From sequence record MF158039: DNA of 47,647 nucleotides. One strand, written 5' to 3'. This DNA comes from Shigella phage Sf12. The translations under genes were made by a program, and so were the position numbers. Of the stretch, positions 5,205 through 46,066 are shown one piece after another. Below the pieces are notes generated by a model. The model searched no databases. It had not been told where the DNA came from and saw nothing but the letters and a program-made list of their open reading frames with translations. The first letter of the stretch is position 1; each line of letters opens with the position of its first letter.

Positions 5205-5250
5205 AATATACGCCATCTTTTGATTTCTGTTTTAGCAATTCGTGCTATTT
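5205..5250 (-). promoter_or_regulatory. Junction cassette copy: palindrome (5233..5247) and -10-like TATATT (complement of 5205..5210)
   Basis: ttagcaattcgtgctattt; stop codon of HNH gene lies in the palindrome. Confidence 0.55.
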
Positions 5251-5703
5251 ACCGTGTCTTTCTGTGAAGCAATGATTTGACTCATAGAAGCTGACTGCTA
5301 GCGCCTTTGCCTCATCAAAACTATCAAATGTTCTATGAATCCTGTGATTGTCCTTTTGCAATTGAACTGTGTATTTACCCTTAGCTTTATTGTAAGAAAC
5401 TCCTGTTTGTCCTGTTTTGTTATCTTTTCTCATCGCTGCGTTTTTGCAGTTTACCAGCCTATCTACACATCTTAAGTTTTCTATTCTGTTGTCGTGCTTT
5501 ATTCCATTCAGGTGATCTATCTCCATACCTTTAGTTATCTCACCATTGTGCATTTCCCATATAACTCGGTGGGCAAAAGTCATTTTGTGACCAACCTTTG
5601 TTCTTACGTAGCCCCTTCTGTCAATATACCCAGCCACTGAATTTGTTGTCTTCCTGATTAGATTGCCTTTGTCGTATATGTAGTGTTTATTCCAATCTTC
5701 CAC
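5245..5703 (-). CDS. HNH homing endonuclease (HNH plus AP2-like C-terminal domain)
   Basis: EIDHLNGIKHDNRIENLRCV motif; paralogous to four other copies in the window. Confidence 0.8.
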   Translation of the reverse strand: MEDWNKHYIYDKGNLIRKTTNSVAGYIDRRGYVRTKVGHKMTFAHRVIWEMHNGEITKGMEIDHLNGIKHDNRIENLRCVDRLVNCKNAAMRKDNKTGQTGVSYNKAKGKYTVQLQKDNHRIHRTFDSFDEAKALAVSFYESNHCFTERHGK

Positions 5704-5745: not shown

Positions 5746-6876
5746 TTATTTAAACATTTCTGGTCTGCATGTGAATCGACCAATCTCGCCGTAATCTTTT
5801 GAGTAGATAATAACTGATGCCTGTCGGTATGAGCGGTAACCGCCGTTTGCGCTATAAGCATCTTTAGCACCCAGTTGCCCGTGAGACTCATCAATACCAA
5901 GGTTTCCTTCAGTAATTGTCTGGTGGTGATAGTGGCCGGAATGCGTGTAAACGTATTCAGCATTACCAAATGCTTTTCGATGATCTCTTGCAAGTGTTGA
6001 AAGTCGAGTGTCAGGCTTTCGTAGCTCATGCCCATGACAGTAACCAAGAAGTGTTTTTCCAAACTCAGTCACATGCAATGCGGCTGGAGATGCATCAACA
6101 TTAACTCGGGGCTCATCCATGTAGAATGCTGCCATTGCTGCCCTCAACCAAATCATTCCGCTTAAATCGTGGTTGCCAGGGATAATCTGAACTTCAACCT
6201 CGGCGTGCTTATCAAGCATCTTGCTAATTGCTCGACGAGTAGACCTAACTGCAACGTAAACCAATTTATGATAGCGGCTATCCTGATCTAGCACGTGATG
6301 GCTAGTTGGTGTTACCGCCTCCATGCCGTCAGAATGAAGAAAATCACCGCCAATCAACAACACGGCTTTGCTTGAGTTCGGTGATTTCGCCACAGCGTAA
6401 TCAAAGTAATCATTAAGAACTCGCTCAGCGATTTCTGTGCTATAGTTTTCACCGCATTCGGCATGGTGAGCCATAGCGCCAATGTGCATATCAAAAACAG
6501 GGTAAAGAGCAAGTGTATCTTCATAGCTTGATTCATTTAGCTTCTTCGGTTTCTCGCGAGGCAATTCATCAGTAAGCGCTTTGATTGCAGCCTCCATCAT
6601 TTCTAGCTGCTTCTCTTTATCTTGATCGCTCTTAACCCATTGCTGCTTAATCTCTCCATCTTCACCAATAAGCGTTGAGACACCCTTCACTGCATAGCCA
6701 GTTGGAATGAGGTTACTCACATCACGACCATGACCCTCCCCAGCCTTAGCAAGCTTACCGCGACGCAGTTCTACGTTGCGAATATTCATACCGTACTTCT
6801 CTGCGATTGATTTGTTAGTCATACCGTTAGCCAGTTCTTCTTTAAGTTGTTCGTTCGTAATTTTAGCGATAGCCAT
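5746..6876 (-). CDS. Calcineurin-like metallophosphoesterase with N-terminal HTH-like segment
   Basis: Motifs DMHIG, GGDFLHSDG, GNHD, GHYHH; N-terminus MTNKSIAEKYGMNIRNVELRRGKL. Confidence 0.7.
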   Translation of the reverse strand: MAIAKITNEQLKEELANGMTNKSIAEKYGMNIRNVELRRGKLAKAGEGHGRDVSNLIPTGYAVKGVSTLIGEDGEIKQQWVKSDQDKEKQLEMMEAAIKALTDELPREKPKKLNESSYEDTLALYPVFDMHIGAMAHHAECGENYSTEIAERVLNDYFDYAVAKSPNSSKAVLLIGGDFLHSDGMEAVTPTSHHVLDQDSRYHKLVYVAVRSTRRAISKMLDKHAEVEVQIIPGNHDLSGMIWLRAAMAAFYMDEPRVNVDASPAALHVTEFGKTLLGYCHGHELRKPDTRLSTLARDHRKAFGNAEYVYTHSGHYHHQTITEGNLGIDESHGQLGAKDAYSANGGYRSYRQASVIIYSKDYGEIGRFTCRPEMFK

Positions 6877-6955
6877 TATTTAATTTCCTGTTAGCAGATT
6901 ATGAAGTACATGATTATAAAGGTTAATGGCATAGCCATCAACGGTAGTAATGTTT

Positions 6956-7159
6956 TCATTGAGCAATTGACCAGTCAAGGTATTCCTTGTCAACTAGGTC
7001 TATCGATATAACATCACCAGTATCATCCTCTATGTATACTATGTAGTCGAAGTCGCTATCAACCTTCTTTACATCATAAACCTTGCCAATTGTCAGGAAA
7101 GTTAAGAAGAAGTCGTGAAGGCTTGTACCAAAAGTTACGTCGTTTAATTTTACTTTCAT
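6956..7159 (-). CDS. Hypothetical protein, 67 aa
   Basis: ORF track; junction cassette upstream. Confidence 0.4.
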   Translation of the reverse strand: MKVKLNDVTFGTSLHDFFLTFLTIGKVYDVKKVDSDFDYIVYIEDDTGDVISIDLVDKEYLDWSIAQ

Positions 7160-7194
7160 TGTTTTACTCTCTTATATCTCGTTTCGATGAACAC

Positions 7195-7240
7195 ACTATA
7201 CGCCATCCATGGCGATGTGTTTTAACAAAAAGTGCTATTT
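7195..7240 (-). promoter_or_regulatory. Junction cassette copy: palindrome-like TAGCA-N5-TGTTA (7223..7237), -10-like TATAGT (complement of 7195..7200)
   Basis: 22-bp gap; leader catcgaaacgagatataagagagtaaaacaATG. Confidence 0.5.
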
Positions 7241-7492
7241 CACTTCTTTTAGCCAATAATCAAGAAACTCAGTTTCAAGCGCTGCGATTGCCGGCGAATA
7301 CTCACTAGGCATCATCATATTGCATCCGGGTGAATAGTACATAAGCTCAGCCTTACCAACTTCAATTTGGACCAGCACATCAAGGTAGTCGGGAGGAATC
7401 CAATCAGAGAAAGGAATCTTCCTGTATGGGACCTCACCAAAAAACACAACAGGATATTTACTCTCATCAAAATCAAGACCTGGTAAATTCAT
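7235..7492 (-). CDS. Hypothetical protein, 85 aa
   Basis: ORF track. Confidence 0.4.
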   Translation of the reverse strand: MNLPGLDFDESKYPVVFFGEVPYRKIPFSDWIPPDYLDVLVQIEVGKAELMYYSPGCNMMMPSEYSPAIAALETEFLDYWLKEVK

Positions 7493-7782
7493 TTCTTCGC
7501 ACCTTTCTTAAATATCTTCTTACCTTCCTCTCTATACATTGCAAGGCTTGGCGTTGCTGGAACTCTTACATACTTACGAGGTCGCTGATTCATATAACTA
7601 AACTTCCCATTGAAAACTACAGAGATGTCGTCGATATCAAAATACTTGCTTATCATCTTGATATCATCCTGTAATCCAGCCTCTCCGCAGTGCGCCCAGA
7701 CCTCAGCCCTTCCGGTTTTTAGTATCATAATCCTAACGATTTCTTTAAAAGGTACATAGCCACAGCCCAATCCGTGGAGCAT
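7489..7782 (-). CDS. Hypothetical protein, 97 aa
   Basis: ORF track; 4-bp overlap with downstream gene. Confidence 0.4.
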   Translation of the reverse strand: MLHGLGCGYVPFKEIVRIMILKTGRAEVWAHCGEAGLQDDIKMISKYFDIDDISVVFNGKFSYMNQRPRKYVRVPATPSLAMYREEGKKIFKKGAKK

Positions 7783-7849
7783 CTTTCTTTAACTGCTGAT
7801 TTTGACATTACCTGTGCATCATTAAATGCTTTGAAATCAAAAATCTTCA

Positions 7850-8140
7850 TTATTTAATCTCCGCATGTTTGCGCACCCAAGCTACACGGGCCGGATTGAG
7901 GTGTTTATTGGCGTCTACCTTATACGCTGACAAACAGCGATCGAAAGGATGCTCCCAGTTAAGACCGGCGTCTGTAAACTGCTGCTGCATCTCTTTGAGC
8001 AAAGCGTAGTCGTCATAATCTGAAAATTGCTCTAGTGAGTAACACAAGCCGCGGCTCCGATCGAACGGCCTGTTTTTTGTTGCGCCAGCGTCAAGCCATG
8101 CAGAATATGCTTTATAGAATGCTTTAAGTTTCTCAGTCAC
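7850..8140 (-). CDS. Hypothetical protein, 96 aa
   Basis: ORF track. Confidence 0.4.
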   Translation of the reverse strand: MTEKLKAFYKAYSAWLDAGATKNRPFDRSRGLCYSLEQFSDYDDYALLKEMQQQFTDAGLNWEHPFDRCLSAYKVDANKHLNPARVAWVRKHAEIK

Positions 8141-8367
8141 TATTGAATCTCCGCAAAAAGTTGAGGTGCATCTTCTTTAAACTCTTCAATATCACGTTGC
8201 ATCATATCTTCCCAATCATTTAAATCTGCGTGCATGTAACCTTCCTCAAAGCTCATATCTAAACAGCTAGCCATTTTTAATGGGTCTTGATTAAATCCTT
8301 TATCAACAAGTTTCTTTGCAGCTAAACCCTGGAACAGTTCCCATTTAGTTTCAAAAGTTAATTTCAT
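8140..8367 (-). CDS. Hypothetical acidic protein, 75 aa
   Basis: ORF track; 1-bp overlap with upstream gene. Confidence 0.4.
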   Translation of the reverse strand: MKLTFETKWELFQGLAAKKLVDKGFNQDPLKMASCLDMSFEEGYMHADLNDWEDMMQRDIEEFKEDAPQLFAEIQ

Positions 8368-8370
8368 TAC

Positions 8371-8571
8371 TCAAACCTCAATTAAAAAAGATACGTGATT
8401 ACCATTTTCATCAACACAACCATAGTAGCCATCACCTTCATTTGATAGCTGCCAGATATACCCAGCGTTTGATTTTATGCACGCGAAGTTTTCAAACTTT
8501 GCGATAACTTCATAATCTTCCAATAAGGTGAAGTGGCTTGTCTTATCTTTAACACAGATTGCAGTTTTCAT
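8371..8571 (-). CDS. Hypothetical protein, 66 aa
   Basis: ORF track; junction cassette upstream. Confidence 0.4.
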   Translation of the reverse strand: MKTAICVKDKTSHFTLLEDYEVIAKFENFACIKSNAGYIWQLSNEGDGYYGCVDENGNHVSFLIEV

Positions 8572-8610
8572 TATTATTTCCTTTGTTGATTACTTCGTTT
8601 CGATGAAGTG

Positions 8611-8656
8611 ATAATACAACATCCTTGGTTTTCGTCTTTAGCAATTCGTGCTATTT
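8611..8656 (-). promoter_or_regulatory. Junction cassette copy: palindrome (8639..8653), -10-like TATTAT (complement of 8611..8616)
   Basis: tttagcaattcgtgctattt; palindrome encodes the C-terminal NSTNC and stop of the upstream gene. Confidence 0.55.
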
Positions 8657-9051
8657 GAAAGATAATCCTCAATTGCCAACTTAAACATTTCGAACCCATA
8701 GCAGATTGCCGCGTAACCTCCTGTTTCTGATACCTTTTCAAGAAACTCCTTTTGCTCATTTGAAACCTTGCTATCTGATTTTATTGCTCGCTTAAGCTCT
8801 ATTGCGGCAAAGCCATTAGGCCCAATCAGAAGGATATCTGACACGCCTTTGATAACCCCCTCTTGCTTATCCTTCATAGCAGTACCAATAGACTTCAACC
8901 CCTCATTCTTCACGTGCCATGCGAATATCTCTGGGTGATTATGGCGAACCCATGCGATTGAATTGGTTTGGTGAATGCACTCTTTACTTTTATCTTCTGA
9001 CTTCTTATCTAAGAATATTTTAACGCTCATTTTCTGCTCCGTGGTTTTCAT
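8638..9051 (-). CDS. VRR-NUC-like nuclease
   Basis: GVSDILLIGPNGFAAIELKR resembles the VRR-NUC G-x-P/S-D ... E-x-K core. Confidence 0.55.
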   Translation of the reverse strand: MKTTEQKMSVKIFLDKKSEDKSKECIHQTNSIAWVRHNHPEIFAWHVKNEGLKSIGTAMKDKQEGVIKGVSDILLIGPNGFAAIELKRAIKSDSKVSNEQKEFLEKVSETGGYAAICYGFEMFKLAIEDYLSNSTNC

Positions 9052-9550
9052 GGTACCCGATTTCTTTTTCTAAAGACTTCCTGGCTAACACTGCTGACTT
9101 CAAATCCACAAAGTAACCTATGTGCTTCTCCTTGCCGTTTATGTTTATGTAAGCTCTGAATTTCTGCTCTCTCTTGTTCCAGCTAACACCTGTAACCCCT
9201 GAAGTGTTGTCATTCCTTTTGCTTTGATTTTTTAAATTATCCTGCTTAGATACTAACCTTAGATTTTCAATCCTATTGTCATCTCTTATGTGGTTTATAT
9301 GGTCTATCTCCATTCCTTTAGGGATTTTGCCATTATAAATCTCCCATATTATCCTATGTGCAAGAAATGGTTTTTTATTTAAAATTATCTGAATGTATCC
9401 GATGTTTTTGGTTCCAGCCTCTTTGCCTGCATAGTTTCCATTCCATTGGGGCCTAACATCACCCCTCCATTTCCAAAACAACTTAAAATCATCACTTAAT
9501 GAAAAATAATCCAACCAATCAAAATTGCTTATTACTAATGACATCTTCAC
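9020..9550 (-). CDS. HNH homing endonuclease
   Basis: EIDHINHIRDDNRIENLRLV motif; overlaps both neighbours. Confidence 0.8.
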   Translation of the reverse strand: MKMSLVISNFDWLDYFSLSDDFKLFWKWRGDVRPQWNGNYAGKEAGTKNIGYIQIILNKKPFLAHRIIWEIYNGKIPKGMEIDHINHIRDDNRIENLRLVSKQDNLKNQSKRNDNTSGVTGVSWNKREQKFRAYININGKEKHIGYFVDLKSAVLARKSLEKEIGYHENHGAENER

Positions 9551-11462
9551 CCTTCCCGTTTTTACGATGAGTTAGTTTAGTTGGCGCTTTAATGAGATGC
9601 TTCATTTCAAGGATCTTTCTTGCGTTACGGCATGCTAACAAGAATCTACGCTCATTGTTTACCAAAACGTGCGGTAGTATAGCCTTTTGCTGATAAATTG
9701 TTCTAGCTATCTTGTGCGTTGATTCTGGGAAGAACACCTCACGAGCCTTGAACCTTTCGCCTGAATCATCAATCAGCGTGTAAGTGTAAATCAATCCTGA
9801 TTGGTTCTTTGTCAATCCAACATCAAATTCAACAACATCGTAGTAGTCATTTTTTGTATAGTGACGACCCGTTAGCTTCAGGTTTGGGTCTATAAGTGTA
9901 CAATCACAACCTCTACATATTTTTGCAGCAACATCATTCTGTACTCCACATCCCTTAACCAATACTTTTCCGGTTCTTGTGTCCTTTTGATCATCGCATG
10001 TACGGCTTACCCAGAAGTAAGAGCATCTCTCACCACTCTCATCAACATGCATGCAGCGTCGAGCAAAGAAGCTGTTCTCTGTTCCGCATACTGGACACTG
10101 CTTAGTCTCCTTGCCATTACTCTTTCGTAGCTGATATTGAGCCTGCTCAAGAATTGGATTGAAGTACAATGATGCCATGGAGTCCATCGTTCCTGCGAAG
10201 TCCAGAACAAGGTGATCATTCTTAATCATCCCCTTATCTTCATGGAGCTTCTTAAGCTTACGCATTCCGCGACCAAGTAGCTGAACCAGGAGTGTAAGGC
10301 TGCCAATCTTACGCAATATAACGCTAGTATCCCAAGTTGGAACGTTAACGCCGGTGGTGAGAGCCTGAACCTGGAAGCAATATTTAATCTCTCCAGTGAA
10401 GCACTTATCCAGCAACTCCTTGCGCTGCTTCTCTCCTGTTTTTCCAGTAATTATACAGTAAGTCTCACCTTCAGGTAGGTAGCTTGCAGCCTCCTTGCAG
10501 TGTCGCTCTCCCGCGCAAGTTACAAGAACTCCATTCCGATCTTTTGCTGCCAACCACACCTTCTTCATAATCTCAGCTGTCATTGTGCCTGACTGCTGAA
10601 TCTTCTTCTCCATTGCCTCTAGCTGAGATTTCGTGAAGTCCTGAACACCATCATCTGCTGAAGTGTCAAACTCAGAGAGATCATAGCCAACACCATAAGT
10701 AGACCCAAAATTCGTAGGAACAACAGAGCCAAACTCAACCAGATAGTTGGTATCAATATTAGTCGCCGTTTCACGCCAGAACCCAAGCTCCTTAAGGTTC
10801 TCCACAACAATTGGTGTTGTTCCGCGGAAAGGAGAGCCAGTCAGGCCAAATATCCTAAGTTCACGCCCATACTTAGCGCGGCAGCGTTCCATTAAAGTAA
10901 GGATGATAACGGTGTATTGGCTGCGCCCTCTATCTGACGCCTGCTGCGCAGTTTCGTTGTTATCAATTGCCTCTGCGATATCCTGATCATCAATATGGTG
11001 GCACTCATCAATAGCAACTACCGCAGGGAAAAAATCGCCAAGTGACTTCTTAAGCCCACCAACTACCGTACCCTCAGAACCAACAACTACAGGAAAGTAG
11101 GATGATTTAATACCCAAACCTGAACAATATATAGAGTTAGGCACTCCATAATCAGAGATCTCAGAAGCATTCTGGCTAACGAGTTCAGCCTGGCGAGCAA
11201 GGAGAAGCATAGGTAAGCCAAGCTCAGAACAACGTTTAGCTACCATAGCAAATACAAGAGTCTTACCAGCCGACACTGAAGCCATTGCGATGAAAGGGTG
11301 TTTGTATTTGCCAATACGCTTAGCAATCTCATCATACATTACACACTGGTAGCTGTATGGAATCATGCCATTGGATGATGTAAATTTTTCCTGAATCTCT
11401 TTAATCTTATTTTCGCCTAGTTCTTCAATCTGTTTTTGTATTGATTTCAATCGCATAGTCAT
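9519..11462 (-). CDS. SF2 DExH-type DNA helicase with C-terminal zinc-finger-like region
   Basis: Walker A SAGKT, Walker B DECHH, CPVCG ... RRC. Confidence 0.75.
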   Translation of the reverse strand: MTMRLKSIQKQIEELGENKIKEIQEKFTSSNGMIPYSYQCVMYDEIAKRIGKYKHPFIAMASVSAGKTLVFAMVAKRCSELGLPMLLLARQAELVSQNASEISDYGVPNSIYCSGLGIKSSYFPVVVGSEGTVVGGLKKSLGDFFPAVVAIDECHHIDDQDIAEAIDNNETAQQASDRGRSQYTVIILTLMERCRAKYGRELRIFGLTGSPFRGTTPIVVENLKELGFWRETATNIDTNYLVEFGSVVPTNFGSTYGVGYDLSEFDTSADDGVQDFTKSQLEAMEKKIQQSGTMTAEIMKKVWLAAKDRNGVLVTCAGERHCKEAASYLPEGETYCIITGKTGEKQRKELLDKCFTGEIKYCFQVQALTTGVNVPTWDTSVILRKIGSLTLLVQLLGRGMRKLKKLHEDKGMIKNDHLVLDFAGTMDSMASLYFNPILEQAQYQLRKSNGKETKQCPVCGTENSFFARRCMHVDESGERCSYFWVSRTCDDQKDTRTGKVLVKGCGVQNDVAAKICRGCDCTLIDPNLKLTGRHYTKNDYYDVVEFDVGLTKNQSGLIYTYTLIDDSGERFKAREVFFPESTHKIARTIYQQKAILPHVLVNNERRFLLACRNARKILEMKHLIKAPTKLTHRKNGKGEDVISNKQF

Positions 11463-11499: not shown

Positions 11500-11542
11500 A
11501 TAATAACAGCCATCAAAACCAATGTTTAACAAAAAGTGCTAT
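11500..11542 (-). promoter_or_regulatory. Junction cassette copy upstream of the helicase: palindrome-like TAGCA-N5-TGTTA (11527..11541), -10-like TATTAT (complement of 11500..11505)
   Basis: 21-bp gap; leader caatcgaacgaacatgaaagg. Confidence 0.5.
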
Positions 11543-11546
11543 CGAG

Positions 11547-12029
11547 GTGATAAAAGTGACTGAAATTGATAAGCGTACTCTTAACGGTAATAATGGAACC
11601 ATCCGAACAGAAGATAAGAAACCACGTAAACGGCCTTCAGGTTACTATGTGTTAAAGGATGAAGTAAAGGCTGGGCTGAGGGCAAGACTTGAGATTGTTT
11701 TAGACTTCTACGGCAGCAAGGCGAATATGGCGAAGCAATTAAAGGTTACTCGCCAGGCTGTTGAGGAATGGTTTAATCGCGGCATGATGTCGGCACGTGG
11801 CGCCCAGCTTGCTCACAATCGATACAAGCGAACTGGCGAAGGCTTCCGCGCTACATTTTGTCGACCAGACTTGCAGTTTGACGGTAACGGCAAGCCGCTA
11901 ACTCTGCGTTGCAAAAAGCGCCACATGCTACGCGTGGTCACTGATGCAGAATTAGCCACCAAGCCCGAGTGTCGCTCGTGGCGCAAAATTAAAGCAGCTA
12001 ATGAAGCAGCACGAAAAGCTAAAGAGTAA
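11547..12029 (+). CDS. HTH DNA-binding protein, candidate regulator
   Basis: HTH-like KANMAKQLKVTRQAVEEWFNRG; GTG start; divergent from helicase. Confidence 0.5.
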   Translation: MIKVTEIDKRTLNGNNGTIRTEDKKPRKRPSGYYVLKDEVKAGLRARLEIVLDFYGSKANMAKQLKVTRQAVEEWFNRGMMSARGAQLAHNRYKRTGEGFRATFCRPDLQFDGNGKPLTLRCKKRHMLRVVTDAELATKPECRSWRKIKAANEAARKAKE

Positions 12030-15538: not shown

Positions 15539-15565
15539 ACTTTTCCTCTCGTTGTCGATGAGGTA

Positions 15566-15608
15566 ACTATACCTCACCGATTTAATGTTGTTTTAGCTAT
15601 TAGTGCTG
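15566..15608 (-). promoter_or_regulatory. Junction cassette copy (degenerate palindrome 15594..15608, -10-like TATAGT complement of 15566..15571)
   Basis: 22-bp gap; conserved leader. Confidence 0.45.
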
Positions 15609-16570
15609 TTTTCGTATTTTGACATGTAGTATGAAGGAACCTGTAGCTCCATAGAGTCCTCAATCATGTTGTAGCCAGGCCAGCGGTCGTACTTCTTGCA
15701 CTGCTTGTATGTCGCCAGGGCTTCCATGTATTGACGCCGACCTAAGGCAATATGTGCATCTGATAGCGTGTAGCACATTGGTAAGTAGGGAGCCTTTTTT
15801 TCTTGAGCTAAAAGCCGAACTAAAACTTTACGTTTTTCGTTGAAAGCACGAACAAACAAATCTCTTTGCAAAGCCATTTTTAGCAGGTAACCATAATTGG
15901 CAGCTAGCCTACCAAACCCTTCAGGAGATGCGTCTGATGTCGTTTTAAAATCTGTAATTATGACCGTATCACCAACAACATCAACGTGGTCCAGCCTAAC
16001 CTTAACTCCGCACTCATTAATCTCTCCGAAGATTGATAGTTCCCTCTGAGCGGTTTCGCTGTTAACTATAGCGTTGTAAGCGGGAATGCCACACAACACC
16101 TCTCGCATCGCTTGTACGGTGTCAAAGTCCTTAGCTGATACAATCTCGCGGCCTTCGGCTTTAATCTCGCTAGATCGCTGGATATCCCACCATACGTTGA
16201 GTGATTCACCAGTCAGCGTCAGCATCTCCATCAATTCAGGGTAATCCTTGCCAGAAGTTCCCGTGATTCCCATCGCCTTAAGTCTTGCGGCTAATGCAGT
16301 CTTGCTTGTGATAAGGTCTTCAAACTCTTCCTGTGCTGGCTGTCGGTAATAAGTAGAATCGAATATGTCACTTTCCAAAATCATTGTATGTGCTGCGCTA
16401 CCAAATGAAAGCGCCCTGCTTTTCTCACTCTCCTGAAATCTAAATGCAGCAGGGCATGTTGAAAATATCTTAGCAAGACCGCTACCCGATACGTGATCAA
16501 CTTCTGAATGATAAGCATCATTTGTTAGCTCATCTCTCGTAAAGACCTTGAATTTCATTTTTCCCACCAT
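15593..16570 (-). CDS. PD-(D/E)XK recombination exonuclease (YqaJ/RecE-like)
   Basis: LDHVDVVGDTVIITDFKT D...D-x-K core; recombination-module context. Confidence 0.6.
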   Translation of the reverse strand: MVGKMKFKVFTRDELTNDAYHSEVDHVSGSGLAKIFSTCPAAFRFQESEKSRALSFGSAAHTMILESDIFDSTYYRQPAQEEFEDLITSKTALAARLKAMGITGTSGKDYPELMEMLTLTGESLNVWWDIQRSSEIKAEGREIVSAKDFDTVQAMREVLCGIPAYNAIVNSETAQRELSIFGEINECGVKVRLDHVDVVGDTVIITDFKTTSDASPEGFGRLAANYGYLLKMALQRDLFVRAFNEKRKVLVRLLAQEKKAPYLPMCYTLSDAHIALGRRQYMEALATYKQCKKYDRWPGYNMIEDSMELQVPSYYMSKYENSTNS

Positions 16571-17078
16571 GCTCTAATGTGAACTTGTTTTTCTTGTTGA
16601 ACTCTAAGCGAACCTTTATGGCCTCCTCCCTTGTATCGAACCTTCCTAGATTTACTGTCTTACCATTTAATCCGGCCCTTGCTATCCACTTGCTTCTATT
16701 TTTATCCCAACAAACACCACAAAAACCAGAAGTGTTATCATCCCTCATTTTTGAATTTCTATTGTTAACTGACTGAGTTACCACTCTAAGGTTTGATATC
16801 TTATTATCATCTCTAAATCCATTAACGTGGTCTATTTGATGCCCTTCTGGTATCTTTGATTTCAAAATCTCCCAAATAGCCCTATGAGCCATGTACTTCA
16901 CATTGTCAATTGTTATGTATATGTATCCTCTCTTCTCATTCTTAACGCCCGCCCTTTTATTTGCAAACCTTGAATTCCACATTTTACATGTCCTTGATGA
17001 TGGGAAATCTGATTCTGGTCTATTCTTCCATATCAGATAACCATCTTCATGGTATGTGAAGTATCTACTCCAATCCAT
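16530..17078 (-). CDS. HNH homing endonuclease
   Basis: QIDHVNGFRDDNKISNLRVV motif. Confidence 0.8.
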   Translation of the reverse strand: MDWSRYFTYHEDGYLIWKNRPESDFPSSRTCKMWNSRFANKRAGVKNEKRGYIYITIDNVKYMAHRAIWEILKSKIPEGHQIDHVNGFRDDNKISNLRVVTQSVNNRNSKMRDDNTSGFCGVCWDKNRSKWIARAGLNGKTVNLGRFDTREEAIKVRLEFNKKNKFTLEHGGKNEIQGLYER

Positions 17079-27055: not shown

Positions 27056-27103
27056 TTCATTATCCTCGTTTGTTTGTTTTGGTCATTTCGTTTCGATGAA
27101 GTG

Positions 27104-27150
27104 ATAATACACCACTTCACCGATTCGTCTTTAGCAATTCGTGCTATTTA
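27104..27150 (-). promoter_or_regulatory. Junction cassette copy driving the moron: palindrome (27132..27146), -10-like TATTAT (complement of 27104..27109)
   Basis: tttagcaattcgtgctattta; 22-bp gap; leader catcgaaacgaaatgaccaaaacaaacaaacgaggataATG. Confidence 0.55.
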
Positions 27151-34680: not shown

Positions 34681-36156
34681 CTATGCGAGAGGTTCGCTTA
34701 AGTTTTCCACCTTATAAGCGTAAACGCCAGCCAAGGCATCGGATGAGTTCCTTATGCCAACTATTGTAAGCTTGAAGCATTTAGAGTCAGCTGTAGCTCC
34801 TGGTGATGTGGTTACGTAGTGCTCAGATGTGACTCCAAAAACTCCTGGCTTGAACACGCTATTCCAAAGAGCAGTCCCAGGAGGCATGCTTGTTACTATC
34901 GCTGTGTAGTTTTTCAACTTATCAGCTGCAACTGTAGTGAGTGAGTCAATCTGGTATGCAGTGTGCCTTATTGAAGCGATGTTTGATGTACCGGTATTAC
35001 TAACACCAACCCACAGCCCCTTAGCGGCAACTGTCGCATTCTTCTCTCCGGTAAGAGCGAACCTTATTGTTGTCTCTCCAGGTATATCTATAAAGTCAGT
35101 ATCCGTCTGATTGATCAACCCTGACCTTACGCCTGAAGCTACGTTATAAGAGGCTGGACCAGCCACCCCCTGTAAGCCCTGAGGTCCCGTAGGGCCCTGC
35201 AATCCACGCTCACCCTGCGGGCCTGCCGGGCCTTGTGGTCCAACTGCACCAGCTACACCTTGTAAGCCTTGCGGGCCAGCTGGGCCTTGCTCACCTTGCA
35301 GGCCCCTCTCGCCTTGTGGGCCTTGAATACCTGCCGGACCTGTCGGGCCAGTTGGGCCTGCTGGACCAGCGGAACCCTGTGGGCCTGGAGCACCCTGTGC
35401 GGCCAGTAACTCCCAGGAATCGCTAACATCTGGATTTTCTCCGGTCACGGCGGCGGTAGCAAACCAGCTTGAGTTATTGAATGTAACAACGTCATCTTTA
35501 ACGTAAGCTGTCGCTGCGTCGTACATCCCGCGGAATGTTAAGCCTGCCGGACCAACTGGGCCCGCATCACCTTTATCACCTTTAGGGCCAGCAGGACCTG
35601 CTGCGCCAGTTGCACCGATAGGGCCTTGCGGACCAGCCTCGCCAGTTTCACCTTGAGGACCTTGCGGGCCTACGGGGCCAGCTGGACCAGTTTCGCCTTT
35701 AGCACCTGCCGCGCCTGCCGGGCCGGTAGCACCTGTTGGGCCTTGAGGACCCTGTGGACCAATAGCTCCTGCCGGGCCCGCTGGACCCTGTGGACCAACC
35801 GGACCTTGTGGGCCTGCTTCACCTGAGCCTCCTTCTTCATCACTTACAAAATCACCTTTCGCCAGCGCTGAAAGATAAGCACCATCTTCGAAGTGGGCAT
35901 TGCCAAACCTGCGCCAGCCCTGGGCTAGATATCTGTTAACCCTGTTAACTAATCCCTGAATTGTGGTATCGGATGTCACCATGAAGTCTTCAACGTTGTT
36001 TGCTGTTCCCTTCGCCATCTTCATGCCAAAGAGGGTGCCGCTCAGCATCTGCACGTCGCCATATGGCTGGAATCCTGATGAAATCATCATTTTTACGTTT
36101 CTGGCTAAGATTTCAGGTGAATTCCCTACTGCCATAGCAATTTCTGTGTAAGCCAT
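34681..36156 (-). CDS. Collagen-like triple-helix repeat protein (fiber-like structural protein)
   Basis: Two long Gly-X-Y tracts, e.g. [34 protein letters not shown]. Confidence 0.8.
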
Positions 36157-39769: not shown

Positions 39770-41036
39770 TAATCACCACCTCCTCTACTAATTCTTCCTG
39801 AGCGGGTTGCTCTGGCAAGTTAACATCGCCATCCTGAAGCTTAACTTCCGTCGCAATGGTACGTAGTGTATCACGAGCTTCTTCGGTATTCATCACGCCA
39901 GCAGCAATCAATGCGGCGACTGAGTTAACGTTCTTCTCAAGAATCTCAGACTTATCTTTATCGCTAACCTGAGATAGGGGGTTAAATTCCACTGACCACT
40001 CTTGCTTAGTTACGATGAACGGTAACAGAAACTCAAGAAGAGGCAGCAATTCAGCCTTTCGCTTGCGGTCAACGTACCCGTAAAACGTCTCTAAAGCAGT
40101 ATTCTGGCTTGCTGATACGCCGCCAACGTTCTTGCCTTTAAGGATAATCTCGTGAATACCGCTCAGAGCAACGATTCGGTCAAACTTCTGACTCAAAAAC
40201 GTATCAATACCGCCAATATCCGAGTTAAGTACGTTATATTCCTCGCTCTCTGCGTCAATGCCGATTGCCTGGCCAACTCCACTGTTATTATCAACCTGTG
40301 CCAGGCGCAATCGAGCCGCGCCAAATCCATCTGAATCATCGCACAGGTCAGCTAAACCCTTGGCTTTCCAAACCGCCTGCTGTTTACGACGCAGTAACTG
40401 AGTAGCCAGTCGCTCACAGTTCTGATAGTCGTCAATAGCGTCGATTAAGTCACCAGTTAGTACGCTTGCGCCCCAGCCATCGTTGTTGCGACGTAAATTG
40501 TTAGGCACTCGCTCGCCATCAATGATATGGCAGCGTGTATAATGCACATCGTAGAACGTTGCCGCACCATTTGGCGTAATGCGGTAAGTTAATGGCTTAC
40601 CAAATCTAGCGTTACGTGGATTCTCCTCGCGAGTCTGGACCTTAACTTGCTGCCGGTCGTATACGCGAACAGTTTCGAGCTCCGCGCCTTCACGAATCGG
40701 GCTGGTTAGTGCTCTGCCATCCTTAACGATTGCCACTACAGCGGCGCCACCGTATAACCTCGCCCACGCCAGAGCGTCGATTACACTATCTGAAAGGTCT
40801 AAATCATCCCAGCGCGACCAGAAAGCGCCCTCATCATCAATGCCTTCAATGTTGAAGCCTGCGCCAAGCGCTACCTCTGGCACGATATCAATGATTCGGC
40901 GAACCAACGCGCTGCTGACGTAAAGCTGCTCAAGCTGCGCTGGCGCTGTTAAACCAAGGCTGCCAAACTTTCCGTAAATCTCGCTACCATCACTCCCGTT
41001 AAGAAAGATGTTTGCGTAGCTGTCTGCTTTTACCAT
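39759..41036 (-). CDS. Portal protein (putative)
   Basis: 425 aa directly downstream of the large terminase; position-based. Confidence 0.5.
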   Translation of the reverse strand: MVKADSYANIFLNGSDGSEIYGKFGSLGLTAPAQLEQLYVSSALVRRIIDIVPEVALGAGFNIEGIDDEGAFWSRWDDLDLSDSVIDALAWARLYGGAAVVAIVKDGRALTSPIREGAELETVRVYDRQQVKVQTREENPRNARFGKPLTYRITPNGAATFYDVHYTRCHIIDGERVPNNLRRNNDGWGASVLTGDLIDAIDDYQNCERLATQLLRRKQQAVWKAKGLADLCDDSDGFGAARLRLAQVDNNSGVGQAIGIDAESEEYNVLNSDIGGIDTFLSQKFDRIVALSGIHEIILKGKNVGGVSASQNTALETFYGYVDRKRKAELLPLLEFLLPFIVTKQEWSVEFNPLSQVSDKDKSEILEKNVNSVAALIAAGVMNTEEARDTLRTIATEVKLQDGDVNLPEQPAQEELVEEVVINEE

Positions 41037-43467: not shown

Positions 43468-43543
43468 TGGTGTTCCGCGCTGGACTCGAACCAGCAACTG
43501 AGACTTAGGAGGTCTCTGCGTTATCCTGTTACGCCAGCAGAAC
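43468..43543 (-). tRNA. tRNA-Arg (anticodon CCU, decodes AGG)
   Basis: Hand-folded cloverleaf: acceptor GTTCTGC/GCGGAAC, D stem GCGT/ACGC with GG in loop, anticodon stem GAGAC/GTCTC loop CTCCTAA, T arm GCTGG-TTCGAGT-CCAGC, encoded CCA. Confidence 0.85.
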
Positions 43544-45894: not shown

Positions 45895-46019
45895 TTTCCA
45901 AGTACCCCTTTGGTTTTTAGGTTTTTGCGGTAGAATTGCATAATGTGCTGATTGTAATAATTACTTGATGGATACTCTTTCATCTTTTTACCCTCTCCTC
46001 CCGTTTGGTTGATAGGGTA

Positions 46020-46066
46020 ATCATAGCTGACTACCCGATTTATTGTTTAGCAATTCGTGCTATTTA
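46020..46066 (-). promoter_or_regulatory. Junction cassette copy: palindrome (46048..46062), -10-like TATGAT (complement of 46020..46025)
   Basis: ttgtttagcaattcgtgctattta; 22-bp gap. Confidence 0.55.

What the first reader, a model, noticed from the sequence alone, without database searches (positions are those of the whole stretch)
6956..9051. Block of seven small early-type genes including a VRR-NUC nuclease, each unit punctuated by junction cassettes
Genes of 66-137 aa with no recognisable function, apart from VRR-NUC at 8638..9051, lie between the phosphoesterase and the helicase. Such blocks in virulent phages typically hold host-takeover and anti-defense factors.
Basis: inference. Interest (0 to 1): 0.45.

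Follow-up and report, generated by a model that had tools for sequence, protein, structure and literature searches.

The report
Small accessory gene block, T1-like phage
This is the usual stretch of small genes of unknown function between the helicase/nuclease genes and the phosphoesterase gene of a T1-like phage, split into three transcription units by a promoter-type repeat already described in this phage family; it is ordinary, but three of its genes sit where relatives carry an anti-restriction methylase.

Summary
The window is a T1-like siphovirus (Drexlerviridae, Rogunavirinae). One protein is 100% identical to Shigella phage Sf12 gp19, on a contig of the same length. The seven ORFs exist, with corrections. 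A 41-aa gene (7725-7850) was missed. ORF3 probably starts at 7728 and the VRR-NUC gene at 9030. An HNH homing-endonuclease gene lies between the block and the helicase. VRR-NUC is confirmed (Pfam 29.1 bits, cut-off 23.8) and is a family-wide core gene, not an accessory one.

Only two "junction cassettes" lie in the block, so there are three units, not one per gene. The cassette is the 21-nt T1/TLS direct repeat already published (PMC11447400). Here it is always followed at a fixed distance by TAnnnT and a conserved leader, which reads as a promoter.

Across 62 related loci, ORF2, ORF3, ORF4 and ORF6 are conserved. ORF1, ORF5 and ORF7 are variable and sit in the stretch where 57 loci carry a family that includes T1's Dam methyltransferase, which this phage lacks. 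No small ORF matches a family of known function. AlphaFold models of ORF5 and ORF3 found no solved fold.

The anti-defence reading is plausible only by position, and only for three genes.

The parts
8638..9030 (-). It is the last gene of the helicase-HNH-VRR unit. Its last five codons and its stop codon lie in the repeat of cassette 1.
   Evidence: PF08774 E 1.1e-6, above the cut-off. About 90% identical to 129-aa relatives that start at the position of M8; D72, E85 and K87 invariant. 1147 phage records, T1 46% identical.
8595..8654 (-). Junction cassette 1: repeat ATAGCACGAATTGCTAAA (8654..8637), 20-nt spacer, TATTAT (8616..8611), predicted start A at 8604, conserved leader TTCATCGAAACGA (8607..8595). 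ORF7 ATG is at 8571. No spacer hairpin.
   Evidence: Homology to relatives resumes at 8593/8594. Repeat described in PMC11447400.
8371..8571 (-). ORF7, 66 aa, acidic (pI 4.7), variable accessory gene. First gene after cassette 1.
   Evidence: phrog_3249 E 2e-28. In 4 of 62 loci. About 50% identical homologues in T1-like phages and about 40% in T4-like phages, there near the primase, sp and dmd genes.
8140..8367 (-). ORF6, 75 aa, acidic (pI 4.3, 17 D+E), conserved in the family.
   Evidence: phrog_2676. 55 of 62 loci. T1 homologue 31% identical. No PDB sequence match of note.
7850..8140 (-). ORF5, 96 aa, GTG start that overlaps the ORF6 stop by 1 nt. Horizontally mobile accessory gene of a large uncharacterised family.
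7725..7850 (-). ORF4, 41 aa, basic. 1-nt overlap with ORF5 and ATGA overlap with ORF3.
   Evidence: phrog_2180 E 1.2e-10. Annotated in relatives. 39% identical to the relatives' copy, whose family is in 55 of 62 loci.
7489..7728 (-).
7235..7492 (-). ORF2, 85 aa, acidic. Last gene of the six-gene unit. Its TAG stop is positions 2-4 of the repeat of cassette 2.
   Evidence: phrog_4596 E 1.6e-42. 38% identical to T1. Synonymous to non-synonymous 28:2.
7179..7238 (-). Junction cassette 2: repeat ATAGCACTTTTTGTTAAA (7238..7221), spacer with hairpin CGCCATGGATGGCG (7214..7201), TATAGT (7200..7195), predicted start A at 7188, leader TTCATCGAAACGA (7191..7179). ORF1 ATG is at 7159.
   Evidence: Homology to three relative lineages resumes at 7177.
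6956..7159 (-). ORF1, 67 aa, acidic, a near-orphan inserted between cassette 2 and the mini-ORF/phosphoesterase.
   Evidence: No PHROG. Found in the phage collection only in phiEB49 gp13, 95.5% identical. Absent from Rogue1-type relatives, where the cassette directly precedes the mini-ORF.
6891..6959 (-). 22-codon hydrophobic mini-ORF (MKTLLPLMAMPLTFIIMYFIIC), ATGA-coupled to ORF1. It contains a 9-bp hairpin (6922-6942). Whether it acts as a peptide or as an RNA/DNA structure is undecided.
   Evidence: Conserved in L001-L004, with one compensatory change in the hairpin in AHP42. Hairpin found. No PHROG.
9020..9550 (-). HNH_3/AP2 homing-endonuclease gene inserted between helicase and VRR-NUC (context, not part of the block).
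   Evidence: PF13392 E 1.9e-22. Absent at this site in relatives, and homology is lost from 8986 to 9721/9730.

Best explanation
The region is the variable accessory stretch that lies between the helicase/VRR-NUC genes and the phosphoesterase gene in every T1-like phage examined.

Shown:
1. It has three units. Unit (a) is helicase, HNH and VRR-NUC. Unit (b) is six tightly packed genes, ORF7-ORF6-ORF5-ORF4-ORF3-ORF2, joined by a 3-nt gap and 1- to 4-nt overlaps. Unit (c) is ORF1, a mini-ORF and the phosphoesterase gene.
2. The units are separated by two copies of the T1-family direct-repeat cassette. The upstream gene's stop codon lies inside the repeat.
3. VRR-NUC, ORF2, ORF3, ORF4 and ORF6 are conserved across the family. 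ORF1, ORF5 and ORF7 are swapped in and out, with homology breakpoints at gene boundaries and at the 3' edge of the cassettes.

Inferred:
1. Each cassette is a host sigma-70 promoter with a good -10 (TAnnnT), no usable -35, and a start at the conserved A seven bases downstream.
2. The repeat, a near-palindrome TAGCA-N5-TG(C/T)TA centred near -42, substitutes for the -35 as the site of a dimeric activator. That activator could be the phage Cro/YdaS-like regulator encoded at 11547-12029, or a host factor.
3. Hairpins in the promoter spacer attenuate read-through, weakly at cassette 2 and not at cassette 1.
4. VRR-NUC acts as a dimeric Holliday-junction/branch resolvase for replication-recombination intermediates.
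5. The conserved small proteins serve phage-intrinsic replication or regulatory roles.
6. ORF7, ORF5 and ORF1 are the candidates for anti-restriction or other host-interference functions in a phage that has no Dam.
For: Identity and synteny.

Gene calls and selection.

VRR-NUC. Standalone viral VRR-Nuc proteins are dimers that cleave four-way junctions (PMC4103454).

Cassette:
- 15 sites against 0.64 expected.
- 27 of 30 repeat sites in this phage plus T1 have TAnnnT 37-42 nt after the repeat start (p 4e-25). An A lies 7 nt after the hexamer in 24 of 27. The repeat start lies 73-87 nt before the start codon.
- All copies point in the direction of the downstream gene.
- The same repeat was published for TLS, T1, Rtp and Rogue1.
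- Complementarity between spacer and discriminator is specific to each cassette: -8.86 against -4.98 kcal/mol, 0 of 20000 permutations.
- Terminator-like GC hairpins lie directly 5' of the -10 in T1 and Webervirus-type copies.

Conserved versus variable genes, and the Dam position.

Breakpoints at 7177, 8593/4, 7729/33, 8367 and 6959. Endpoints fall in cassettes 2.7 times more often than expected.

ORF5 and ORF7 in unrelated phages.
Against: No transcript data, so start sites, timing and terminator function are all predictions.

The repeat's TTGnTA lies 22-23 bp from the -10, which is not a normal -35 spacing. No activator has been shown. The palindrome is imperfect in the TTT class and poor in the 15609 copy.

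The hairpin signal is weak for the two cassettes of this block (-4.2 and -6.4 kcal/mol). It is weaker in the 29 non-redundant cassettes of this region (20 of 20000).

Breakpoint enrichment would be expected for any intergenic spacer, and BLAST endpoints are noisy and not independent.

No small ORF has any functional homology. The BASEL study found no simple link between methyltransferase genes and restriction sensitivity in Drexlerviridae (PMC8594841), which weakens the argument from the Dam position.

VRR-NUC did not match solved VRR-Nuc chains by sequence.
Confidence: 0.6

Rival explanations
1. One reading: the whole block is an early host-takeover/anti-defence island, with each small protein inhibiting a host function or a defence system.
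For: The genes are small and four are acidic. The region is mosaic. T1 carries Dam in the same stretch. ORF5 and ORF7 relatives lie among small genes of unknown function in N4-like and T4-like phages. Drexlerviridae differ in defence sensitivity for unknown reasons (PMC8594841).
Against: Five of the nine genes, VRR-NUC included, are conserved across subfamilies. No homology to any characterised inhibitor was found. Timing is unknown, and the same promoter cassette precedes genes in other parts of the genome.
Confidence: 0.15
2. The conserved small proteins (ORF2, ORF3, ORF4, ORF6) are accessory subunits or regulators of the neighbouring replication/recombination enzymes (helicase, VRR-NUC, phosphoesterase/exonuclease). 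An example would be a small basic DNA-binding protein (ORF3) with acidic partners. On this view they do not interfere with the host.
For: Order is fixed between the helicase/VRR-NUC and the phosphoesterase in 62 loci. Purifying selection is strong. ORF3 is basic, with a helix-helix-hairpin core and a lysine-rich tail. The genes overlap in a way that suggests translational coupling and so fixed ratios.
Against: No domain or fold match supports DNA binding or enzyme association. Co-location in phage genomes is weak evidence of interaction.
Confidence: 0.3
3. The cassettes are not activator-dependent promoters. The alternatives are: (i) repressor sites of the stoperator type, (ii) UP-like elements contacted by the RNA polymerase alpha subunit, or (iii) RNA-level elements (processing or stability hairpins) in one long read-through transcript.
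For: The TLS paper proposes stoperators, enhancers or UP-like elements. Hairpins that covary and include G-U pairs suggest an RNA or single-strand structure. The 3' half of the repeat is A/T-rich and lies at about -40 to -33.
Against: TAnnnT at a fixed distance in 27 of 30 sites, with a pyrimidine-A start motif 7 nt downstream, is what a -10 element predicts and is not needed for a hairpin loop or a repressor site. The GCAC core of the repeat is unlike UP consensus sequences (established knowledge of UP elements). The 3' arm of the hairpin would be absent from transcripts that start at the predicted A.
Confidence: 0.25
4. Some of the listed ORFs (ORF1, the 22-codon mini-ORF, ORF4) are not genes but chance reading frames in regulatory spacer.
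For: ORF1 has no PHROG and is known only from phiEB49. Its 3 synonymous and 3 non-synonymous differences are uninformative. The mini-ORF coincides with a hairpin that shows a compensatory change.
Against: ORF1 has a Shine-Dalgarno-like AAGAGAG and keeps its frame in phiEB49. ORF4 matches phrog_2180 (E 1.2e-10), and its relatives' family is in 55 loci. Antisense and alternative-frame ORFs of the block match nothing.
Confidence: 0.1

Closest known systems
Direct repeats of T1-like phages (TLS 'DR', consensus aaATAGCACnnnTTGnTAAAA; called possible 'enhancers' in T1), PMC11447400
   Same: Same sequence (0 mismatches at 8637-8654 and 7221-7238), same orientation as transcription, intergenic, 73-87 nt before start codons (about 76 in TLS). 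13 good copies in this genome.
   Different: The paper describes only the 21-nt repeat and leaves its role open. Here the repeat is shown to be followed at a fixed distance by TAnnnT, an A start motif and a conserved leader. Spacer hairpins of two kinds are seen. Stop codons of upstream genes lie inside the repeat. Mosaic breakpoints lie at the cassette's 3' edge. I did not find this architecture described, but my literature search was limited.
Standalone viral/bacterial VRR-Nuc Holliday-junction resolvases (PF08774; Pennell et al. 2014, PMC4103454)
   Same: Single-domain protein of about 130 aa. Pfam match above the cut-off. D...ExK catalytic residues conserved. Encoded next to replication genes.
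   Different: Activity and dimer state are untested. No sequence-level match to the solved VRR-Nuc chains. The C-terminal residues NSTNC are encoded by the promoter repeat.
The stretch between VRR-NUC and the phosphoesterase in phage T1, which carries Dam (DNA adenine methyltransferase directly after the VRR-NUC cassette)
   Same: Same synteny: helicase, VRR-NUC, cassette, [genes], phosphoesterase, with shared ORF6, ORF3 and ORF2 homologues.
   Different: This phage has no Dam anywhere. ORF7, ORF5 and ORF1 are present instead. This gene combination is unique among the 62 loci compared.
Blocks of small genes of unknown function in virulent phages (left-end genes of N4-like phages; T4 genes around the primase/sp/dmd region) and phage 'morons'
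   Same: Runs of overlapping genes of 40-100 aa, mostly unknown, exchanged horizontally. ORF5 is related to an N4-like phage's 'gp3-like' gene, and ORF7 to a T4-like small gene near the primase.
   Different: About half of this block is conserved across the family rather than variable. No member has a demonstrated host-takeover or anti-defence function.
Class II activator-dependent promoters (for example lambda cI at PRM or CRP at -41.5; established knowledge)
   Same: Good -10, poor -35, and a dyad-symmetric site centred near -42 (positions derived).
   Different: No activator has been identified and nothing was tested. This is a working analogy, not a claim of membership.

Membership tests
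VRR-NUC (PF08774) nuclease | Profile match above Pfam's gathering score | tested here: met
   29.1 bits against 23.8, E 1.1e-6.
VRR-NUC (PF08774) nuclease | PD-(D/E)xK catalytic residues (Asp, then Glu-x-Lys) | tested here: met
   G-V-S-D72 ... E85-L-K87, invariant in five homologues.
VRR-NUC (PF08774) nuclease | Dimeric enzyme that cleaves four-way junctions (PMC4103454) | not testable with these tools
   Needs biochemistry. No sequence match to solved VRR-Nuc chains.
T1-family direct-repeat cassette (PMC11447400) | Consensus aaATAGCACnnnTTGnTAAAA | tested here: met
   Two copies with 0 mismatches in the block; 15 sites in the window against 0.64 expected.
T1-family direct-repeat cassette (PMC11447400) | Intergenic, co-oriented with transcription, about 76 nt before the start codon | tested here: met
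   83 and 79 nt for the two copies; 73-87 nt for all 12 copies measured; all point towards the next gene.
Sigma-70 promoter | -10 hexamer TAnnnT at a fixed position | tested here: met
   TATTAT and TATAGT here; 27 of 30 repeat sites, p 4e-25.
Sigma-70 promoter | -35 hexamer 16-18 bp upstream | tested here: not met
   AAAGAC and AAAACA, 3 of 6 matches at best. The repeat's TTGnTA is 22-23 bp away.
Sigma-70 promoter | Primary transcript 5' end | not testable with these tools
   No transcript data. A at 8604 and 7188 is a prediction.
Known anti-defence or host-takeover proteins | Sequence or fold homology to a characterised inhibitor | tested here: not met
   No Pfam, NCBIfam or annotated PHROG match. 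PDB sequence searches, run for ORF2, ORF5 and ORF6 and as family profiles for ORF3 and ORF5, found nothing. No fold match for ORF5 or ORF3. No dedicated anti-defence library was available.
Known anti-defence or host-takeover proteins | Variable, horizontally exchanged accessory gene at a hot spot | tested here: inconclusive
   Met for ORF1, ORF5 and ORF7 (2, 1 and 4 of 62 loci). Not met for ORF2, ORF3, ORF4, ORF6 and VRR-NUC.
Known anti-defence or host-takeover proteins | Early expression; toxicity or defence inhibition | not testable with these tools
   Requires transcriptomics and functional screens.
Intrinsic terminator (for cassette hairpins) | G+C-rich stem followed directly by a T run | tested here: inconclusive
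   Cassette 2: CGCCATGGATGGCG followed by TATAGTGTGTT, which is weak. The scan reported this palindrome (7201-7214) only as a plus-strand site, and the minus-strand reading is my own. Cassette 1: none. Clear examples occur in T1, such as CCCGCgaaaGCGGG-TATTATTGTTTTAT.

The most novel reading that the evidence does not exclude
The cassette is a self-contained, portable junction module with four roles. It stops translation of the upstream gene. It attenuates upstream transcription through a hairpin built into the promoter spacer or around the -10. It restarts transcription from a -35-less promoter that depends on the repeat and a dedicated activator. It also provides the shared homology at which T1-like phages swap downstream genes. 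On the same reading, one or more of the genes swapped in here (ORF7, ORF5, ORF1) would be a new anti-restriction or anti-defence protein that compensates for the absence of Dam.
Probability: 0.15. Interest if true: 0.55.

Novelty: new member of a known kind. Interest (0 to 1): 0.25.

Why it matters
T1-like phages are common laboratory contaminants and therapy candidates, and about half of their genes are still unassigned. The BASEL study found that Drexlerviridae differ widely in sensitivity to restriction and other defences, with no genomic feature that explains it (PMC8594841).

This work narrows the search in one such phage. Of nine genes, it singles out three (ORF7, ORF5, ORF1) as exchangeable cargo in the stretch where relatives carry Dam. 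It flags four as family-conserved, and therefore more likely needed by the phage itself.

It also turns the published repeat of unknown role into a concrete, testable promoter model with exact predicted start sites. That would help annotate transcription units across the whole family.

None of this makes the block itself unusual.

Tried and rejected
- Family searches: Pfam, NCBIfam and PHROG scans of all block ORFs gave only VRR_NUC and PHROGs of unknown function.
- Labels in one relative's annotation (DUF771, NFACT-R_1, HEPN) were not reproduced at E 0.1 or better, so I disregard them.
- PDB sequence searches with single proteins and with family profiles found nothing meaningful.
- Fusion partners of ORF5 relatives (a dATP/dGTP pyrophosphohydrolase, DUF6197) were too sporadic to support a function.
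- ORF1 and ORF7, each the first gene after a cassette, are not related to each other.
- Rfam at gathering threshold found only the tRNA.
- Antisense and alternative-frame ORFs match no phage family.
- I rejected reading the repeat's TTGCTA as a -35, because the spacing is 22-23 bp.
- I rejected a T4 MotA-box analogy, because the position is wrong (about -40 rather than -30).
- I rejected an IHF site, because the match is poor.
- Literature searches for transcription start mapping in Drexlerviridae and for phage Sf12 returned nothing.
Full report
**What the window is.** Nucleotide searches place the window in the T1-like siphoviruses (Drexlerviridae, subfamily Rogunavirinae). Its nearest relatives are phiEB49, Rogue1, C119 and the AHP/AKS phages, at 88-90% identity. 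They cover only 39-47% of 6800-9600, so the block is a mosaic. One protein of the block is 100% identical to "Sf12_gp19 [Shigella phage Sf12]" on a 47,647-bp contig, the length of the window. The same contig is in IMG/VR.

**Checking the observation.**
- All seven minus-strand ORFs exist at the stated coordinates.
- VRR-NUC is confirmed: PF08774, 29.1 bits against a cut-off of 23.8. The catalytic Asp72 and Glu85-x-Lys87 are invariant in relatives.
- Six of the seven match PHROG families, all of unknown function. ORF 6956-7159 matches none.
- Synonymous changes far outnumber non-synonymous ones for ORF2, ORF3 and VRR-NUC, so these are real genes.
- Antisense and alternative-frame ORFs match nothing.

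Several details need correcting:
- A 41-aa gene at 7725-7850 (phrog_2180; annotated in relatives) was missed.
- ORF3 probably starts at 7728 (79 aa), where its ATG overlaps the stop of the 41-aa gene.
- VRR-NUC probably starts at 9030 (130 aa, against 129 aa in relatives).
- A conserved 22-codon hydrophobic mini-ORF at 6891-6959 follows ORF1.
- An HNH/AP2 homing-endonuclease gene (9020-9550), absent at this site in relatives, separates the block from the helicase.

**The junction cassettes.** Only two lie in the block, with the repeat at 8637-8654 and 7221-7238. The six genes from 8571 to 7235 are joined by a 3-nt gap and overlaps of 1, 1, 4 and 4 nt. The block therefore has three units: helicase-HNH-VRR-NUC, then ORF7 to ORF2, then ORF1-mini-ORF-phosphoesterase.

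The repeat is already published. The TLS re-annotation paper reports a 21-nt direct repeat aaATAGCACnnnTTGnTAAAA at 21 places, about 76 nt before start codons. It notes the repeat in T1, Rtp and Rogue1 too, and leaves its role open between stoperator, enhancer and UP-like element (PMC11447400).

**What I could add about the cassette.**
- All 13 good copies in the window share one architecture: repeat, 19-21 nt spacer, TAnnnT, 4-5 nt, then a leader resembling CATCGAAACGA, a Shine-Dalgarno sequence and the start codon.
- In this phage plus T1, 27 of 30 repeat sites have TAnnnT 37-42 nt after the repeat start (p 4e-25). Of those 27, 24 have an A exactly 7 nt after the hexamer, usually after a pyrimidine.
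- This is what a sigma-70 -10 element and start site predict. No usable -35 lies 16-18 bp upstream, and the repeat's TTGnTA is 22-23 bp away.
- The repeat is a near-palindrome (TAGCA-N5-TGCTA) centred near -42. My working model, which is an inference, is a -35-less promoter that depends on a dimeric activator bound at the repeat. The phage's Cro/YdaS-like HTH gene at 11547-12029 is one candidate.
- The upstream gene ends inside the repeat. ORF2 uses the TAG at repeat positions 2-4. VRR-NUC uses the TAA at positions 15-17, so its conserved C-terminal NSTNC is encoded by the repeat.
- The spacer often holds a hairpin. In some copies a G+C-rich stem lies directly 5' of the -10, whose T-rich sequence then serves as a terminator tail (T1: CCCGCgaaaGCGGG-TATTATTGTTTTAT). 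In others the spacer pairs with the bases just after the -10.
- Complementarity within a cassette far exceeds that between cassettes: -8.86 against -4.98 kcal/mol, 0 of 20000 permutations.
- For the two cassettes of this block the hairpins are weak (7201-7214) or absent.

**Mosaic structure.** Against three relative lineages, nucleotide homology resumes exactly at the 3' edge of the cassette leaders (7177 and 8593/8594). The other breakpoints fall on gene junctions: 6959, 7729/7733 and 8367. One more, at 8986, lies inside VRR-NUC on the flank of the HNH insertion. Across 19 representative loci, alignment endpoints fall in cassettes 2.7 times more often than expected. That test is noisy, and any intergenic spacer might behave the same way.

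**Conserved and variable genes.**
- Using the ORF3 family as a probe, I fetched 63 loci.
- In the 62 that could be analysed, the order helicase, VRR-NUC, block, phosphoesterase is kept.
- VRR-NUC is a core gene: 1147 phage records, with T1 at 46% identity.
- ORF6 is in 55 loci. The family of the relatives' 41-aa gene, to which ORF4 is 39% identical, is also in 55. ORF3 is in all loci. ORF2 is in at least 21, and has a 38%-identical T1 homologue.
- ORF7 is in 4 loci, ORF1 in 2 and ORF5 only in this phage. In the phage collection ORF1 is found only in phiEB49.
- 57 of the 62 loci carry a family (fam0) within this stretch that includes the gene T1 annotates as DNA adenine methyltransferase, which in T1 sits directly after the VRR-NUC cassette.
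- This phage has no Dam homologue and no N6-methyltransferase motif in any ORF of 120 aa or more.

**The individual proteins.**
- ORF5 belongs to a large uncharacterised family: 720 cluster representatives and 142 phage records, among them Vequintavirinae, N4-like, Rhizobium and jumbo phages. It shares 77% nucleotide identity with phage A7_1.
- ORF5 has no Pfam domain. Its model is confident (pLDDT 96), but no solved fold resembles it.
- In an N4-like phage its relative lies among small genes of unknown function at the left end of the genome.
- ORF7 has 40%-identical relatives in T4-like phages near the primase, sp and dmd genes.
- ORF1, ORF2, ORF6 and ORF7 are acidic.
- No protein could be assigned a function.

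**Judgement.** VRR-NUC is a replication/recombination enzyme. Standalone viral VRR-Nuc proteins are dimeric junction resolvases (PMC4103454). The four conserved small genes look like phage-intrinsic functions.

The cassette is a known element. Its promoter-plus-hairpin architecture is a modest refinement that I did not find described, and it needs transcript mapping to confirm. Overall this is an ordinary accessory block of a sequenced T1-like phage, of low to moderate interest.

Noticed in passing
window 5245-5703(-), 9020-9550(-), 16530-17078(-): Three HNH_3/AP2 homing-endonuclease genes; the first two are 42% identical to each other. The 9020-9550 copy is inserted between helicase and VRR-NUC where relatives have none. 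Nucleotide homology to relatives is lost on both flanks (8986 to 9721/9730), as expected around a homing site.
   Followed up: partly
window 6891-6959(-), hairpin 6922-6942: A conserved 22-codon hydrophobic mini-ORF (MKTLLPLMAMPLTFIIMYFIIC), ATGA-coupled to ORF1 and lying directly before the phosphoesterase gene. It contains a 9-bp hairpin that keeps its pairing through an A-T to C-G double change in phage AHP42. Whether it acts as a peptide or as a structure is undecided.
   Followed up: partly
all repeat cassettes, e.g. window 27088-27147(-), 15550-15609(-), 46000-46063(-); T1 locus L012 1450, 2269, 3535, 4864, 47619: Stems that differ in sequence between cassettes but keep complementarity. 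They enclose the -10 hexamer in the loop, pairing the spacer with the bases just after the -10 (0 of 20000 permutations). The 3' arm would be missing from transcripts that start at the predicted A, so their role is unexplained. Possibilities are read-through RNA structure, DNA cruciform or attenuation.
   Followed up: partly
window 11525-11542(-) and 11547-12029(+): The repeat of the helicase cassette lies 5 nt from the start of the divergently transcribed Cro/YdaS-like HTH regulator gene. The two promoters must therefore overlap within an 84-bp spacer. This gene is a candidate repeat-binding protein.
   Followed up: no
window 7850-8140(-) and alignment A2: The ORF5 family is large (720 representatives at 50% identity), occurs as tandem duplications in some proteins and in 2-3 copies in some large phage genomes, is absent from Pfam, and folds with high confidence into a helical domain with no solved relative. 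It is a candidate for a new domain family entry.
   Followed up: partly
T1 record MN153797.1 40475-40729 (locus L012): The T1 record annotates a 47-aa protein (40586-40729) where tblastn shows an 84-aa homologue of ORF2 (40475-40723), so the gene is probably called too short there.
   Followed up: no
window 43468-43543(-): A single tRNA-Arg (anticodon CCT), as reported for related phages.
   Followed up: no
window 35001-36000: G+C content rises to 0.58 against about 0.44 elsewhere, inside the 491-aa ORF 34681-36156.
   Followed up: no
whole window: No Dam homologue and no (D/N/S)PP(Y/F/W) methyltransferase motif in any ORF of 120 aa or more, although most Drexlerviridae loci examined carry a family that includes T1's Dam next to VRR-NUC.
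   Followed up: partly
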